This document shows, one piece after another, positions 2,902-26,642 of a stretch of DNA of 64,000 nt. The notes beneath the pieces were generated by a model. It made no database searches. It saw only the letters and a list, made by a program, of their open reading frames with translations, and had not been told where the DNA came from. The first letter of the stretch is position 1. Each line of letters begins with the position of its first letter. Both the position numbers and the translations under genes were made by a program. Source of the DNA: a virus; the IMG/VR virus record IMGVR_UViG_3300027801_000011, positions 1 through 64,000 of that record; one strand, 5' to 3'.

Positions 2902-3900
2902 ATGAGTTCATACATTGACATTAAATATCTTAACATAATTTCCCCACAGCTAATGCAATTCAAGAAGAAGGGCGATGCCCTTTGGAATTTTCGTTGCCCG
3001 TACTGTGGAGATTCGAAGAAGAACAAGACTAAAGCCAGAGGATTCGTTTATCGTAAGAAGAATGATCTGTTCTTTAAGTGTCATAATTGTCAAGTTGGCA
3101 CTACTCTAAGTAAGTTGATAGAGCTCCTAGACTCTAAAACTCACAATGACTATATAATGGAACGATATAAAAAGGGTGTTAAGAAACAGACGCCAGAACC
3201 AGAGTTTAAATTCAATGCACCAGTTTTTCGCAAAAAGGGTATCTTTAAAGACCTCACTTCTATCTCAGAACTTGAGCCTGATCACCTTGCTAGAAAAATT
3301 GTTGAAGAGAGAAAATTACCACCCGAATCACTCAAGGACTTATTCCTATGTGATTCATTCTTTAAATTCACCAATAGTTTAATACCAAATAAGTTCCCTT
3401 CTTTGGATGGAGATCATCCAAGGCTATTAATACCGTTTCGAAATGAGCAAGGAGAAATATTTGCATATCAAGGAAGAGCATTTGGAGAAGAAAAACCAAA
3501 ATATATTACGATCAAGTTAGAAGATCGTACTAAGATTTTTGGACTAGACAAACTTGACAGAGATCAACCTCTGTTTATTGTTGAGGGCCCACTAGATAGC
3601 TTGTTTCTGGATAACTGTATAGCAGTTGCTGGATCAGACTTTGGAGTGTATCCGAATGAAGTTACTATAATATACGATAACGAACCAAGGAATAAGGAAA
3701 TTAATAAACAGATTGAGAAGTCTATTGATTTGGGTAATAATATAGTTATATGGCCTGACTCAATGGAACATAAAGATATTAACGATATGATTATCGCTGG
3801 TTACACTAAAGAAGAATTAATGGAAATAATAACAGTTAACACCTTTACTGGCGCTTCGGCTAAGTTAAGGTTCGCAGAATGGAGAAAGATCGATGCCTAG
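2902..3900 (+). CDS. DNA primase (T4 gp61-like)
   Basis: Zn finger CPYCGDS...CHNC; TOPRIM motifs VEGPLDSLF, YDNEPRN, KDINDM. Confidence 0.95.
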   Translation: MSSYIDIKYLNIISPQLMQFKKKGDALWNFRCPYCGDSKKNKTKARGFVYRKKNDLFFKCHNCQVGTTLSKLIELLDSKTHNDYIMERYKKGVKKQTPEPEFKFNAPVFRKKGIFKDLTSISELEPDHLARKIVEERKLPPESLKDLFLCDSFFKFTNSLIPNKFPSLDGDHPRLLIPFRNEQGEIFAYQGRAFGEEKPKYITIKLEDRTKIFGLDKLDRDQPLFIVEGPLDSLFLDNCIAVAGSDFGVYPNEVTIIYDNEPRNKEINKQIEKSIDLGNNIVIWPDSMEHKDINDMIIAGYTKEELMEIITVNTFTGASAKLRFAEWRKIDA

Positions 3901-5812
3901 CAATTACCTACCAACGTCCTACCAAGAATTTATTCACTTATCAAGATACTCAAGGTGGTTGCCAGAAGAGGAACGCCGAGAAACGTGGGATGAAACCGTA
4001 GGGAGATATTTCAATTTCTTCAAAGAACATTTGGATGAAATGCATGAGTATAAACTTTCAGATAAACTTAGGAAAGAACTAGAAGAGGCAGTTCTCTCTC
4101 AAAGAGTTATGCCCTCCATGCGTTGTCTTATGACTGCTGGTGAAGCATTGAAGCGTGAGAACATCGCTGGATACAATTGTTCATATGTTGCAGTTGATCG
4201 CCCACAGGCGTTTGATGAAATCCTGTATGTGTTGATGAATGGTACAGGTGTTGGTTTCAGTGTTGAACGCCAATACGTATCTGAGCTACCACGGGTTGCT
4301 GAAGAATTCCATCCTACCGACACTACTATCACCGTTGCCGATTCTAAGATGGGTTGGGCAAAGGCCTTTAAGGAATTGGTTGGTATGTTGTATATCGGTC
4401 AGATTCCACGTTGGGATTTGTCTAAGGTACGTCCTGCTGGCGCTCCCCTTAAAACTTTCGGTGGTCGTGCATCTGGGCCAGAACCCTTAGAGAGTCTATT
4501 CAACTTTTCTGTAACGACATTCCAGAACGCTGCTGGTCGTAGATTGTCTTCACTTGAAGCACATGATATCGTATGTAAGATTGCTGAAGTTGTTGTAGTT
4601 GGCGGTGTTCGTCGTTCTGCTCTCATTAGTCTATCTAATCTATCTGATGACCGTATGCGTGATGCAAAGGCAGGACAGTGGTGGATCAATGATGGACAGC
4701 GTGCATTAGCAAACAACTCTGCTTGTTATACTGAGAAACCCGACATGGGGATTTTCATGAGCGAATGGAAAGCTCTTTATGATTCCAAGTCTGGTGAACG
4801 TGGTATCTTCAATCGTGAGTCTGCTGTTAAGATGGCTGCAAAGAATGGTCGTAGGAATACAGAAGACTATGATTTTGGTACAAACCCTTGTTCTGAGATT
4901 ATCCTACGTAATCGTGAGTTCTGTAATTTGTCTGAGGTTGTTGTTCGTGTTACTGATACGAAGGAGACTCTTTTGGAGAAGGTGCGTCTAGCAACGATTC
5001 TTGGCACTATCCAGGCAACACTTGTGAACTTCAAGTACGTATCATCCTCATGGAAAAAGAATTGTGAAGAAGAGAGACTTTTAGGAGTCTCTCTTACTGG
5101 TATTATGGACTGCCAGTTCACTAATGGTAAGAAAGCTGGACTTGAAACTCTTCTTGATGACTTACGTGCTATGGCAGTTAAGACTAATAAGGAGTTTGCA
5201 CAAAAGATAGGAATCCCACAAAGTGTCGCTATAACGTGCGTCAAACCCTCAGGCACTGTCTCTCAGTTGGTTGATGCTGCAAGTGGTATACATGCTAGGC
5301 ATAATCCCTACTATATTCGAACTGTACGTGGCGACAAGAAAGACCCACTTACAAAGATGATGACAGACGTTGGATTCCCTGTAGAAGATGATGTTATGAA
5401 CCCCAATAATACTGTTGTGTTCTCATTTCCTCATAAGATCGACAAGGGTGCTGTATTTCGTACAGACATGACTGCTATTGAACAGTTGGAGTTATGGTTG
5501 ATATATCAGAAACATTGGTGTGAGCATAAACCTTCTGTGACCATTTCAGTGAAAGATAATGAATGGATGTCAGTTGGTGCATGGGTATATGAATATTTCG
5601 ACTACATGTCTGGCGTCAGCTTCCTGCCTCACACAGACCATACATATAAGCAAGCACCGTACCAAGACATCCAAAAAGAAGAGTATGAAGTTCTTCTTGG
5701 ACAGATGCCAAAAGATGTGGATTGGAATAAATTGTCAGAATACGAAAAAACAGATATGACCGTGGGAGCCCAAGAGTTAGCATGTGCAGCTGGGTTCTGT
5801 GAGATTCAATGA
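3893..5812 (+). CDS. nrdJ: class II adenosylcobalamin-dependent ribonucleotide reductase
   Basis: YNCSY, VVVGGVRRSALISL, TNPCSEIIL, TCVKPSGTVS, C-terminal CAAGFCE; no beta-subunit gene alongside. Confidence 0.9.
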   Translation: MPSNYLPTSYQEFIHLSRYSRWLPEEERRETWDETVGRYFNFFKEHLDEMHEYKLSDKLRKELEEAVLSQRVMPSMRCLMTAGEALKRENIAGYNCSYVAVDRPQAFDEILYVLMNGTGVGFSVERQYVSELPRVAEEFHPTDTTITVADSKMGWAKAFKELVGMLYIGQIPRWDLSKVRPAGAPLKTFGGRASGPEPLESLFNFSVTTFQNAAGRRLSSLEAHDIVCKIAEVVVVGGVRRSALISLSNLSDDRMRDAKAGQWWINDGQRALANNSACYTEKPDMGIFMSEWKALYDSKSGERGIFNRESAVKMAAKNGRRNTEDYDFGTNPCSEIILRNREFCNLSEVVVRVTDTKETLLEKVRLATILGTIQATLVNFKYVSSSWKKNCEEERLLGVSLTGIMDCQFTNGKKAGLETLLDDLRAMAVKTNKEFAQKIGIPQSVAITCVKPSGTVSQLVDAASGIHARHNPYYIRTVRGDKKDPLTKMMTDVGFPVEDDVMNPNNTVVFSFPHKIDKGAVFRTDMTAIEQLELWLIYQKHWCEHKPSVTISVKDNEWMSVGAWVYEYFDYMSGVSFLPHTDHTYKQAPYQDIQKEEYEVLLGQMPKDVDWNKLSEYEKTDMTVGAQELACAAGFCEIQ

Positions 5813-25095: not shown

Positions 25096-25823
25096 TGTTC
25101 AACCATTTAAACGTGGAGTTGCCTCCTATAAGTGCAACAACAACAGACGGTGTACGCCTTTATGAGACACCAGAGGGTAACAAGTACCCATCAATCACAA
25201 CCATTTTACAAGTTCGTAATAAGTCTGGACTTGATCAATGGCGTAAACGTGTGGGCGAAAAGACTGCTAACTACATTGCTGGTAAAGCAGCCGCTCGTGG
25301 TACTAAGGTACATCACATGTGTGAGGACTATCTAAACAATATGGAATCTAATTTTCCCAAAGATTGGGAGAAGCATAAGAAGGATTTCCTGCCTTTTTGT
25401 TTGTTTGGTCAATTAAAAACCGTTATTCAGAATATAGATAACATACATGCACAAGAAGCAGGCCTCTATTCTGATAAATACAAGGTAGCAGGAAGGGTTG
25501 ACTGTATCGCAGAGTACAATGGAGTGCTGTCGATTATAGACTTCAAGACTTCAACCAAAGAACGCAATGATGAATGGAATGAAAACTATTATATTCAATG
25601 TTCGGCTTATGCAGAGATGTATGAAGAAAGAACTGGTACAGAGATAGAACAAATTGTTATTCTATGTGTAACCGAAGACGGCACTGTACAAGAGTTTGTA
25701 AAAGAGAAGTATGATTACCTCGATTCATTGGTAGAAACCGCTACCATATGGAGAGAACAAAATGAAACACCTAATAGCAATATGGGCGGTGTTTCTGTTA
25801 ATGGGTTGTCAGACCAACAATAA
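25095..25823 (+). CDS. PD-(D/E)XK exonuclease
   Basis: YPSITTIL, RGTKVH, AGRVDC, IIDFKTS, Q..AYA. Confidence 0.88.
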   Translation: MFNHLNVELPPISATTTDGVRLYETPEGNKYPSITTILQVRNKSGLDQWRKRVGEKTANYIAGKAAARGTKVHHMCEDYLNNMESNFPKDWEKHKKDFLPFCLFGQLKTVIQNIDNIHAQEAGLYSDKYKVAGRVDCIAEYNGVLSIIDFKTSTKERNDEWNENYYIQCSAYAEMYEERTGTEIEQIVILCVTEDGTVQEFVKEKYDYLDSLVETATIWREQNETPNSNMGGVSVNGLSDQQ

Positions 25824-26232
25824 TATTCCCAAAGACAGCATATCGTCTACACCAATAGTAGAAGCAGATGAAGAGCTGGCAGAAGAATCTCAAAAAACGC
25901 CAGAAGAACCAAAAGTGGAAGGTCAACTAAACCAACCTCAAGTTGGTGCCTTTGTGGTACACAGACCAACTCTATGCGGGGATGCTGTCTCAATAATGAC
26001 GGGAATTGATAAGAATTCTAAAGAAGAACCTGTTGCTTTTTGGACTGATGCTCAATATGGACATAAGGTTATGATGCTTCGTAATGATGAGACTAAGACT
26101 GTTAGTATGATTGAATGGCCTAGGCCTGAGATTGCTTGTTTTATATCAGTTGGTACTGATTCTATGATGAAACCAGCTGAAGATGTTGGACAGAAAGTAG
26201 TTTATAAAAGGGACTTGACATTTGCACCTTGA
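25762..26232 (+). CDS. lipoprotein
   Basis: Lipobox LMGC. Confidence 0.6.
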   Translation: MKHLIAIWAVFLLMGCQTNNNIPKDSISSTPIVEADEELAEESQKTPEEPKVEGQLNQPQVGAFVVHRPTLCGDAVSIMTGIDKNSKEEPVAFWTDAQYGHKVMMLRNDETKTVSMIEWPRPEIACFISVGTDSMMKPAEDVGQKVVYKRDLTFAP

Positions 26233-26245
26233 TATGGTATAAATA
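26215..26245 (+). promoter_or_regulatory. dual early/late promoter for tmRNA
   Basis: TTGACA-17-TATAAA; the -10 extends to the late consensus TATAAATA. Confidence 0.75.
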
Positions 26246-26249
26246 GTAT

Positions 26250-26642
26250 ACAATTTGATGATACGAATTGAAAGCTGAACTGGACGAGGGGGCAGTACCC
26301 TCCGCCTCCACCAAAAGGAGACTAGAATGCTAGAGATATTGTTAGGGGATTCTGATGAAGACCCCCTTAGTACGAGAGGTTAGTAAGTGGATGTTTAAAG
26401 CATATATCGTTTGGAGTATATGTGCTGACATTACCCTACTAGCGGGTTTAATATACCTAGTCTTTTTTTGATGGGGGCGAAATAGGATCGACAGGCAGAG
26501 ATAGATGAGTGGAGAATTGTCGGATGACTCCGTTATTGGTCAAATTAGTAAATGCAAACGATAATATTGCATATGAGGATTTCGCACTAGCTGCGTAATC
26601 TGTCGGGGTTCGGGGAGTAACCTAGCAACAGAATACTCCCCA
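26250..26642 (+). ncRNA. ssrA: circularly permuted (two-piece) tmRNA, alphaproteobacterial type
   Basis: Acceptor piece ...GGGGCAGTACCCTCCGCCTCCACCA ends 26313; coding piece starts GGGGGCGAAATAGGATCGAC at 26473 (G3:U pair); tag ANDNIAYEDFALAA* at 26554-26598; 3' CCTAGCAACAGAA element. Confidence 0.93.
26355..26471 (+). CDS. 38-aa membrane peptide inside the tmRNA intervening segment
   Basis: MKTPLVREVSKWMFKAYIVWSICADITLLAGLIYLVFF*; stop lies 1 nt before the coding piece. Confidence 0.55.
   Translation: MKTPLVREVSKWMFKAYIVWSICADITLLAGLIYLVFF

What the first reader, a model, noticed from the sequence alone, without database searches (positions are those of the whole stretch)
26314..26472. Protein-coding ORF(s) inside the tmRNA intervening segment
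The excised spacer is 159 nt. It carries an AAGGAG SD right after CCA, an 18-aa ORF (26327-26383, MLEILLGDSDEDPLSTRG) and an overlapping 38-aa TM peptide ORF (26355-26471) whose stop lies 1 nt before the coding piece. tmRNA maturation would release a mini-mRNA, or translation could modulate RNase P processing. A normally discarded spacer may thus double as a gene (inference).
Basis: partly seen in the sequence, partly recalled or inferred. Interest (0 to 1): 0.75.

Follow-up and report, generated by a model that had tools for sequence, protein, structure and literature searches.

The report
Membrane-peptide gene inside phage tmRNA spacer
The 159-base spacer that is cut out when this marine T4-like phage's two-piece ribosome-rescue RNA (tmRNA) matures carries a real, selected 38-codon gene for a small membrane peptide, plus a short leader reading frame, so a supposedly disposable piece of a stable RNA very probably also works as a messenger RNA.

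Summary
Rfam confirms a permuted tmRNA (137 and 123 bits). Its spacer, 26314-26472, holds an SD-led 18-codon ORF1 and an overlapping 38-codon ORF2 that ends 1 nt before the coding piece.

ORF2 is a real gene:
- It is intact in 89 of 89 distinct related spacers, 120-294 nt long.
- pN/pS is 0.30 in its frame against 0.96-1.73 in the other two frames.
- Its serine codons switch between AGY and TCY.
- Profile searches find 248 protein clusters (85 at 50% identity), all unnamed.
- The same ORF1+ORF2 module also stands free, outside any tmRNA, in related phages, with sharp cassette edges.

ORF1 shows no amino-acid selection but is always open. It runs over a conserved hairpin that hides ORF2's start, so it is most likely a coupling leader.

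The spacer is also RNA. A 12-bp closing stem pairs ORF1's SD with ORF2's last codons, and the UGA stop belongs to the tmRNA's conserved UGAU leader.

The peptide is one helix with an invariant mid-membrane Asp; its function is unknown. A role of translation in tmRNA processing is untested and not required.

No paper found describes genes in tmRNA spacers. This scan noted the same phenomenon before on other DNA, with other peptides.

The parts
26215..26245 (+). Promoter of the tmRNA precursor: TTGACA (26215-26220), 17-nt spacer, then TATAAATA (26238-26245). It reads both as a sigma-70-type -10 box and as a T4-type late-promoter box.
   Evidence: Read from the sequence. Phage Melnitz has the same arrangement upstream of its SsrA. 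The scan did not list it, because it requires T at position 6 of the -10 hexamer. Activity is inferred.
26250..26313 (+). Acceptor piece of the permuted tmRNA (T arm and 3' half of the acceptor stem), ending in the encoded CCA at 26311-26313.
   Evidence: Rfam RF04321 and RF01849 alignments.
26314..26472 (+). Intervening segment (spacer) of 159 nt, which carries the two-ORF module.
   Evidence: Bounded by CCA and G1 in the Rfam alignments. Homologous spacers were found in 89 distinct sequences.
26314..26325 (+). 5' strand of the spacer's closing stem (AAAGGAGACTAG). It contains the SD of ORF1 (AAGGAG, 26315-26320).
   Evidence: Pairs 1-11 with 145-155 form in 53-54 of 54 distinct 159-nt spacers, with covariation at 4:152, 5:151 and 9:147. 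The twelfth pair comes from the fold of the window's own spacer.
26327..26383 (+). ORF1, 18 codons: an SD-led leader frame that overlaps the start of ORF2 in the -1 frame.
   Evidence: 78 of 86 spacers have a separate SD-led ORF1, with the start 4-7 nt after the SD across all 86. It is open in 74 of 74. pN/pS is 0.95. It is kept in free-standing copies.
26339..26375 (+). Hairpin that pairs ORF2's SD-like GGGG (26345-26348) with CCCC in codons 3-4 and leaves the ATG in the loop. It lies wholly inside ORF1.
   Evidence: MFE of the window's spacer. Pairs 31-35 with 51-55 are kept in 44-54 of 54 spacers. All 74 distinct modules fold with at least 4 pairs bridging the ATG, mean z -2.3.
26355..26471 (+). 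ORF2, 38 codons plus TGA: a small single-helix membrane peptide with the conserved core Y-x-x-W-S-I-C-A-D ... G.
   Evidence: Intact in 89 of 89 spacers. pN/pS 0.30 against 0.96-1.73 in the other frames. 248 and 85 protein clusters. One helix, pLDDT 91.5.
26457..26468 (+). 3' strand of the closing stem (CTAGTCTTTTTT), which also encodes the last residues of ORF2 (L-V-F-F).
26469..26472 (+). TGAT: the stop codon of ORF2 plus position -1 of the presumed RNase P site. It is a conserved leader of these tmRNA genes.
   Evidence: TGA plus one further base is found in 88 of 89 family spacers, and TGAT in 67 of 98 other spacers. RNase P cleavage at G1 follows from established tmRNA and tRNA biology and was not tested.
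26473..26642 (+). Coding piece of the tmRNA: 5' half of the acceptor stem (GGGGGCG, with G3 opposite U), the tag frame at 26554-26598 (ANDNIAYEDFALAA, then stop), and a 3' terminal stem.
   Evidence: Rfam alignments and the sequence.

Best explanation
The spacer of this phage's two-piece tmRNA gene holds a genuine small gene module, and the tmRNA precursor serves as its messenger.

How it most likely works (inferred steps are marked):
1. Transcription from the tmRNA promoter makes one RNA: acceptor piece, spacer, coding piece.
2. Ribosomes load at the strong SD just after CCA, most easily while the RNA is still being made, because that SD later pairs with the end of the spacer (inferred).
3. 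They translate the 18-codon leader ORF1. In doing so they melt the hairpin that hides ORF2's own weak SD and ATG (inferred).
4. ORF2 is then translated into a 38-residue peptide. It is probably tail-anchored in the inner membrane, with a basic N-terminus inside and one helix carrying an invariant Ser-x-x-Ala-Asp ... Gly face.
5. ORF2 ends at the UGA of the tmRNA's UGAU leader. A ribosome there must unwind the closing stem and part of the acceptor stem. On any one transcript, translation and tmRNA folding or processing therefore exclude each other (inferred). Once the RNA folds, RNase P cutting at G1 and 3' trimming to CCA end its life as a messenger (inferred).

The module is a mobile cassette that also occurs free-standing, so the spacer is a permissive, well-transcribed slot and not a site the peptide needs.

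What the peptide does is not shown. The most likely role is binding a host or phage membrane protein, or self-association through its polar helix face, with tightly limited dosage.
For: Shown here:
- The tmRNA and all coordinates are confirmed.
- ORF2 is intact in 89 of 89 distinct spacers of 120-294 nt, with the frame kept through indels of 18 and 33 nt and others.
- In 46 cores collected without reference to the peptide, pN/pS is 0.30 in the ORF2 frame. It is 0.38 without the motif codons, and 0.96-1.73 in the other frames. Ser codons are 40 AGY and 6 TCY.
- In 3 distinct 120-nt spacers (L233, L274, L284), the SD-linked ATG starts the peptide directly with no ORF1. L019, L236 and L297 also start in the ORF2 frame.
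- There are 248 clusters at 90% identity and 85 at 50% identity.
- Ten of ten tested loci have a full permuted tmRNA enclosing the ORF.
- Free-standing copies of the module were found in 12 distinct loci. They lie beside tmRNA genes, inside a tRNA array, or in loci with no tmRNA hit.
- Cassette edges are sharp. L163 and L187 are about 95% identical from ORF2's SD to TTTTGAT. L289 and L196 are about 85% identical from ORF1's SD to the stop. The flanks are unrelated in both pairs.
- ORF1 is open in 74 of 74. Eight lineages below 60% identity give a joint chance of about 10^-2.8. Its SD and start spacing are conserved.
- The hairpin forms over ORF2's start in 74 of 74 modules, free-standing ones included.
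- The closing stem forms in 53-54 of 54 with covariation.
- AlphaFold2 predicts a single helix over residues 4-37, pLDDT 91.5.
Against: - There is no direct evidence of expression. No isolate phage among 50,697 records carries this peptide, so no proteome or Ribo-seq data exist.
- The SD of ORF1 is sequestered in the closing stem once the RNA has folded, so translation may be inefficient.
- The coupling role of ORF1 rests on structure prediction and conservation only. ORF2's conserved N-terminal codons (N-P-L-V) and the hairpin constrain each other, so which came first cannot be told.
- ORF1 length varies. It reads on for 52-67 codons in some subgroups.
- No known protein family or function matches.
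Confidence: 0.8

Rival explanations
1. Translation of the spacer gene is functionally tied to tmRNA supply. A ribosome translating to the UGA 1 nt before G1 blocks folding and RNase P cleavage, so tmRNA maturation speeds up when free ribosomes are scarce. The reverse is also possible: processing sets the peptide dose as a timer.
For: The stop lies 1 nt from G1 in 88 of 89 spacers. The SD and the last codons lie in the closing stem that abuts the acceptor stem, so mutual exclusion on one transcript follows from the geometry (inference).
Against: The same module works as a free-standing gene in 12 distinct loci. Other spacers of sister tmRNA genes are short and without an ORF, or hold ORFs that stop at other places, from -13 to +15 nt relative to G1. 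TGAT before G1 is also present without the peptide.
Confidence: 0.12
2. The spacer is conserved only as RNA (closing stem, processing signals), and the open frames are by-products that are never translated.
For: A real closing stem and an internal hairpin exist. The U-rich end and TGAT are tmRNA features.
Against: The substitution pattern is frame-specific: 0.30 against 0.96-1.73. Ser codons switch between AGY and TCY. Indels stay in frame and 89 of 89 ORFs are intact. The peptide also occurs outside any tmRNA with unrelated flanks. RNAalifold finds no consensus structure over most of ORF2.
Confidence: 0.03
3. The tmRNA gene here is a decaying relic, and the locus now serves only as an mRNA for the peptide.
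For: ARAGORN does not call the gene.
Against: The covariance-model match is full-length at 137 bits. The gene has a G3-U pair, an encoded CCA and an intact tag frame ending in ALAA plus stop. Ten of ten relatives score 79-115 bits over the full model.
Confidence: 0.03
4. ORF1 and ORF2 are joined by a programmed +1 frameshift into one longer protein.
For: ORF2 lies in the +1 frame relative to ORF1, and the two overlap by 29 nt in the window.
Against: ORF2 has its own start (ATG in 80 of 86, GTG in 6) and an SD-like G run 5-9 nt upstream. ORF1's unique part shows no amino-acid selection. Three distinct 120-nt spacers have no ORF1 at all. No conserved slippery site was seen in the alignment.
Confidence: 0.02

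Closest known systems
Two-piece (circularly permuted) tmRNA genes of marine T4-like myophages, such as Methylophilales phage Melnitz and pelagimyophages (PMC9004378; Rfam RF01849, RF04321)
   Same: Gene order is the same: PhoH-like gene, PDDEXK nuclease gene, tmRNA, gp33-like gene. The TTGACA-17-TATAAATA promoter is shared. The tmRNA is of alphaproteobacterial type, 76% identical over the mature parts.
   Different: The published description treats the gene purely as an RNA gene. The word 'intervening' does not occur in that paper. Melnitz's own spacer holds a different SD-led ORF with an IPKYLSG motif, which is not annotated in the record.
Intervening sequences of bacterial 23S rRNA that carry the S23p ORF (Coxiella burnetii; PMC4990558)
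   Same: A segment excised from the precursor of a stable RNA contains an ORF and behaves as a horizontally acquired element.
   Different: According to that paper's abstract, S23p appears not to be made in vivo, its ORF is decaying, and excision is by RNase III. Here the ORF is under purifying selection and carries a conserved SD. Excision is expected to use the tRNA-processing route (RNase P at G1), which was not tested.
hok/mok-type type I toxin mRNAs (from memory, not tested here)
   Same: A small hydrophobic peptide whose occluded start lies inside an overlapping leader frame that has the accessible SD. The RNA also has 5'-3' fold-back pairing that closes it.
   Different: No antisense RNA was sought or found. 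Toxicity is unknown. There is no sequence similarity. The host RNA is a tmRNA precursor in a lytic phage.
Dual-function RNAs (SgrS/SgrT, RNAIII/hld) and homing-endonuclease genes in group I introns of tmRNA genes (the latter in PMC11915505)
   Same: One transcript yields both a functional RNA and a protein, and the protein gene sits in a part removed from the mature stable RNA.
   Different: The spacer is not an intron: there is no splicing, and the two pieces stay apart. The product is a membrane peptide unrelated to the element's mobility. PMC11915505 reports a tRNA gene and a repetitive element in tmRNA intervening sequences, but no protein genes.

Membership tests
Permuted (two-piece) tmRNA, Rfam RF04321 / RF01849 | Covariance-model score above the curated gathering score over the full model | tested here: met
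   137.4 bits (cut-off 50) and 122.6 bits (cut-off 47), both full-length.
Permuted (two-piece) tmRNA, Rfam RF04321 / RF01849 | Acceptor piece with encoded CCA upstream of the coding piece; acceptor stem with a G3-U pair | tested here: met
   CGCCTCC-ACCA at 26300-26313 pairs with GGGGGCG at 26473-26479, with G3 opposite U.
Permuted (two-piece) tmRNA, Rfam RF04321 / RF01849 | Tag reading frame ending in hydrophobic ALAA plus a stop | tested here: met
   26554-26598 encodes ANDNIAYEDFALAA followed by a stop.
Permuted (two-piece) tmRNA, Rfam RF04321 / RF01849 | Spacer actually excised, leaving a mature RNA in two pieces | not testable with these tools
   Inferred from homology with characterised two-piece tmRNAs.
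New small membrane-peptide family (core Y-x-x-[WY]-S-[IV]-x-A-D ... G) | Significant profile match and the conserved core in a single hydrophobic helix | tested here: met
   Alignments A1-A3. 248 and 85 clusters. Helix over residues 4-37. Y, A, D and G are invariant even among members 24-49% identical.
Pfam DUF2542 (PF10808) | Score at or above the curated cut-off | tested here: not met
   15.3 bits against a cut-off of 25.
hok/mok-like type I toxin module | Small hydrophobic peptide with an overlapping leader ORF and an occluded start | tested here: inconclusive
   The architecture is present and conserved. Dependence of ORF2 on ORF1 translation was not tested.
hok/mok-like type I toxin module | Cis-encoded antisense RNA antitoxin; toxicity of the peptide | not tested
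   No search for an antisense RNA was run. The only minus-strand promoter-like site nearby is weak, at 26543-26516 with 9 of 12 matches.
Stem-closed intervening sequence of a stable RNA that carries an ORF (23S rRNA IVS type) | Closing helix formed by the two ends of the excised segment | tested here: met
   11-12 bp stem in 53-54 of 54 spacers, with covariation. The stem is general in sister spacers: median 11 bp, and 57 of 67 have at least 7 bp against 2.25 expected from shuffles.

The most novel reading that the evidence does not exclude
The nested gene and the tmRNA form a built-in sensor. Ribosomes translating the spacer keep the precursor unfolded and delay RNase P cleavage. When free ribosomes run short, for example because many are stalled, precursors fold and are processed faster. 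That raises the tmRNA supply and shuts off the peptide. A stable RNA and a protein would then be made from one transcript in a ratio set by the cell's translational capacity.
Probability: 0.1. Interest if true: 0.85.

Novelty: new variant of a known kind. Interest (0 to 1): 0.72.

Why it matters
The spacer of two-piece tmRNA genes is treated as throw-away RNA, and gene annotation does not look for proteins inside RNA genes.

The result here shows three things:
- A large, unnamed family of phage membrane peptides (at least 248 clusters) is encoded there under purifying selection.
- The peptide gene comes with its own leader-frame and hairpin expression device.
- The module moves as a cassette between the spacer and ordinary intergenic sites.

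This gives three concrete uses:
- A testable case of a precursor of a stable RNA that doubles as an mRNA, and a system to ask how translation and RNA processing compete on one molecule.
- A new small-protein family with an invariant membrane-embedded Asp to characterise.
- A warning to annotation pipelines that genes inside tmRNA genes are being masked. Melnitz, the cultured relative, has an unannotated ORF in its spacer.

Tried and rejected
- ARAGORN finds no tmRNA in the window. Rfam does.
- The first pN/pS estimate (0.25) used sequences partly collected with a pattern that encodes WSICAD, so it was biased. It was recomputed on peptide-independent scans, with and without those codons.
- Pfam, PHROGs and the ESM Atlas give only sub-threshold or unnamed hits: DUF2542 at 15.3 bits, phrog_7343 for 3 of 30 members, and one TciB-like hit for 1 of 19 members at E 0.0023. 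None was used.
- tblastn against 50,697 isolate phage records found no match.
- A scan of 185,579 species genomes found only two MAG contigs with a good match, which are probably phage DNA. A third hit covers 10 residues and is treated as chance.
- The search for related loci failed on the divergent alignment, which has no conserved stretch, and on a 39-aa single query, which is too short.
- Two classic tmRNA papers (PMC516066, PMC16621) are not held.
- The four-copy complex prediction gave 'no answer'. It counts neither for nor against self-association.
- A programmed +1 frameshift joining ORF1 to ORF2 was considered and rejected (see the rival explanations).
- A 5'-3' fold-back as an intrinsic feature of free-standing copies appears in only some of them (L126, L187) and not in others, so it is left open.

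Full report
**1.
The window comes from a 115-kb uncultured virus record. It is syntenic with the OM43 myophage Melnitz around its SsrA gene: PhoH-like, PDDEXK nuclease, tmRNA, gp33-like.

Rfam finds a full-length permuted tmRNA: alpha_tmRNA 137.4 bits over 26211-26642, and tmRNA_permuted 122.6 bits over 26250-26598. ARAGORN finds nothing.

The coordinates:
- CCA is 26311-26313, the spacer is 26314-26472, and G1 is 26473.
- The tag frame 26554-26598 reads ANDNIAYEDFALAA.
- AAGGAG (26315-26320) lies 6 nt before ORF1 (26327-26383, 18 codons).
- ORF2 (26355-26471, 38 codons) overlaps ORF1 in the +1 frame and stops 1 nt before G1.

**2. Relatives.**
Three scans of viral contigs were run:
- one with a pattern from the start of the coding piece;
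- one with a pattern that encodes WSICAD (biased for the peptide but blind to context);
- one with the acceptor end plus SD (blind to the peptide).

Together they gave 247 loci with an acceptor-to-G1 pair and 191 distinct spacers of 3-499 nt. Of these, 89 carry a homologue of ORF2, and all 89 are intact. The stop ends 1 nt before G1 in 88. The spacer lengths are 120, 157, 159, 160, 165, 166, 174, 177, 183, 186, 192, 256, 260 and 294 nt, and the ORF2 frame is kept throughout. Ten of ten tested loci have a full permuted tmRNA (79-115 bits) that encloses the ORF.

**3. ORF2 is under protein-level selection.**
This was measured on 46 distinct cores from the two peptide-blind scans:
- pN/pS is 0.30 in the ORF2 frame, against 1.18 and 1.71 in the other frames.
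- Without the six motif codons it is 0.38, against 0.96 and 1.73.
- The Ser after Trp uses AGY 40 times and TCY 6 times.

In 3 distinct 120-nt spacers (L233, L274, L284) the strong SD-linked ATG opens the peptide directly, with no ORF1. In L019, L236 and L297 the SD-linked start is also in the ORF2 frame.

Profile searches find 248 clusters at 90% identity among 5.8 billion proteins and 85 clusters at 50% identity among 1.84 billion. All are 'hypothetical' and none has a Pfam domain. Even members only 24-49% identical keep Y, A, D and G of the core Y-x-x-[WY]-S-[IV]-x-A-D ... G.

**4. The same module exists outside tmRNA genes.**
The context-blind scan also returned 18 loci (12 distinct) with the peptide but without a flanking acceptor or G1. 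Rfam and the sequences show where these copies lie:
- L188: the copy ends just before a tmRNA promoter.
- L123, L126: 160-440 nt upstream of a tmRNA gene.
- L162, L200: 1-2 kb away from a tmRNA gene, on the other strand.
- L144: inside an array of more than 30 tRNA genes.
- L132, L154, L155, L172, L187: no tmRNA or tRNA hit in the locus. L196 has only a tRNA about 4 kb away.

Most keep the whole device: SD, ORF1, G-run, then ATG-AAG-AAC-CCC.

Pairwise alignments show sharp cassette edges:
- L163 (spacer) and L187 (free) are about 95% identical from ORF2's SD to TTTTGAT and unrelated beyond.
- L289 (spacer) and L196 (free) are about 85% identical from ORF1's SD to the stop, which is TGA in the spacer and TAA in the free copy. 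Their flanks are unrelated.

Free copies mostly stop with TAA, whereas 88 of 89 spacer copies stop with TGA. The gene is therefore a mobile small-gene cassette, and the spacer is one of its homes.

**5. ORF1 is a translated leader, not a selected protein.**
- Its unique part has pN/pS 0.95, and in the overlap the ORF2 frame is the constrained one.
- Yet 78 of 86 spacers have a separate SD-led ORF1, and across all 86 the SD-linked start is ATG, GTG or TTG, 4-7 nt after the SD.
- It is open in 74 of 74, against 10 and 50 of 74 for the other frames. Eight lineages below 60% identity give a joint chance of about 10^-2.8.
- Indels keep it open.

ORF1 always runs across a hairpin that pairs ORF2's SD-like G run with the C-rich codons 3-4 and leaves the ATG in the loop.
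- Pairs 31-35 with 51-55 are kept in 44-54 of 54 spacers.
- All 74 distinct modules, free-standing ones included, fold this way, with mean z -2.3.

The simplest reading is translational coupling: ribosomes on ORF1 open ORF2's start. This is an inference. It resembles the mok/hok arrangement, which I recall from memory and did not test.

**6. The spacer is also structured RNA.**
- Nucleotides 1-11 pair with 145-155 in 53-54 of 54 distinct 159-nt spacers, with covariation at three pairs.
- In the window the stem is 26314-26325 with 26457-26468.
- ORF1's SD is therefore the 5' strand, and ORF2's last codons (L-V-F-F) are the 3' strand.
- Such a closing stem is general. Its median is 11 bp in 67 sister spacers without this peptide. 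Of these, 57 have at least 7 bp, against 2.25 expected from shuffles.
- TGAT before G1 occurs in 67 of 98 such spacers, so the gene borrows the tmRNA leader's UGA as its stop.
- L188 and L287 have the same stem arms but no ORF of 20 codons or more in the spacer, as expected for a slot whose content is exchanged.

**7. Mechanism.**
- Shown: the gene, its selection, its leader, the hairpin, the closing stem and its mobility.
- Inferred: the tmRNA promoter (TTGACA at 26215, 17 nt, TATAAATA at 26238) drives the only plausible transcript.
- Inferred: ribosomes must load before the closing stem forms, or must open it.
- Inferred: a ribosome at the UGA covers the first bases of the coding piece, so translation and folding or processing exclude each other on one molecule.
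- Inferred: RNase P cleavage at G1 and trimming to CCA end the messenger.

A regulatory tie between translation and tmRNA supply is possible but not needed. The module also works elsewhere (section 4). Sister tmRNA genes have spacers without an ORF, or with ORFs that end at other positions.

**8. The product.**
- AlphaFold2 gives one helix over residues 4-37, pLDDT 91.5.
- The N-terminal 17 residues carry four basic residues and one acidic residue. Residues 18-38 are hydrophobic, with invariant S21, A24, D25 and G31. This suggests an N-in, tail-anchored peptide with a polar helix face.
- No family or function could be assigned.
- The self-association job gave no verdict.
- The family is essentially absent from cellular genomes, with two probable phage contigs in MAGs, and absent from isolate phages.

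**9. Novelty.**
- The Melnitz paper describes the phage ssrA but never its spacer.
- The 2025 tmRNA database paper notes a tRNA gene and a repetitive element in intervening sequences, but no protein genes.
- Full-text searches found no report of ORFs in tmRNA spacers.
- The nearest published analogue is the S23p ORF in the 23S rRNA intervening sequence of Coxiella. There the protein appears not to be made and the ORF is decaying.
- Earlier notes of this scan report the same phenomenon in at least eight other genomes, with other peptides. By sequence, this peptide had not been noted before.
- What this window adds: a very large peptide family, the leader-plus-hairpin device, and direct evidence of cassette movement between the spacer and free sites.

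**10. Limits.**
- There are no expression data.
- Sequences are related, so counts of intact ORFs are not independent events. The frame-specific substitution pattern and the unrelated flanks are the stronger arguments.

Noticed in passing
L001:3081-3220 (Melnitz); also L042, L097, L082, L016: The spacer of the cultured phage Melnitz's tmRNA holds a different SD-led ORF (MFKWLSK... with an IPKYLSG motif). The motif is shared by ORFs in the spacers of L042, L097, L082 and L016. The ORF is not annotated in the GenBank record, and in Melnitz it reads on into the coding piece.
   Followed up: partly
L058, L078, L117, L013, L063, L015, L062 (spacers of 108-118 nt): A second spacer peptide family (MDEV.LWE.RK...YICINNYS..HARL) has a frame that runs 13 nt into the mature coding piece. 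It stops at the TAG of the conserved GAAATAGGAT.
   Followed up: no
L083, L041, L199, L300: A Cys-containing spacer peptide (…ANYRRxCN..YDDLCM). In L199 and L300 it takes the place of ORF1 ahead of the membrane-peptide gene, so those spacers (260 and 256 nt) hold two genes.
   Followed up: no
L283, L286, L017, L044, L081, L018, L016: Longer spacers (239-499 nt) carry SD-led ORFs of 68-120 codons, several with predicted membrane helices.
   Followed up: no
L188:1813-1987; L270:5104-5308: A manA RNA motif (Rfam RF01745, 72 and 76 bits) lies directly downstream of the tmRNA gene. Melnitz has a glutamine riboswitch at that position. The window has neither there; its glutamine riboswitch is at 926-975.
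   Followed up: no
L144:1943-6158: An array of more than 30 tRNA genes in a viral contig. A direct-SD copy of the membrane-peptide gene (5371-5481) sits between two of the tRNAs.
   Followed up: partly
window 26215-26245: The tmRNA promoter combines TTGACA, a 17-nt spacer and TATAAATA. The -10 element is also a T4-type late-promoter box. Melnitz has the same (L001, about 2982-3012).
   Followed up: partly
L131, L136, L143, L198, L221 (five of six members of one subgroup); also L142, L159, L244, L258: In these subgroups the ORF1 frame has no stop inside the spacer. It reads on for 52-67 codons, through G1 and into the tmRNA coding piece.
   Followed up: no
L188 and L287 spacers (128 nt): These spacers have the same closing-stem arms (AAGGAGATT ... 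TCTCTTT) as the peptide-bearing spacers but no ORF of 20 codons or more. This is as expected if spacer contents are swapped between fixed stems.
   Followed up: no
window 25762-26232: The ORF just upstream has a lipoprotein-type signal (…LLMGC) and overlaps the tmRNA promoter with its last codons.
   Followed up: no
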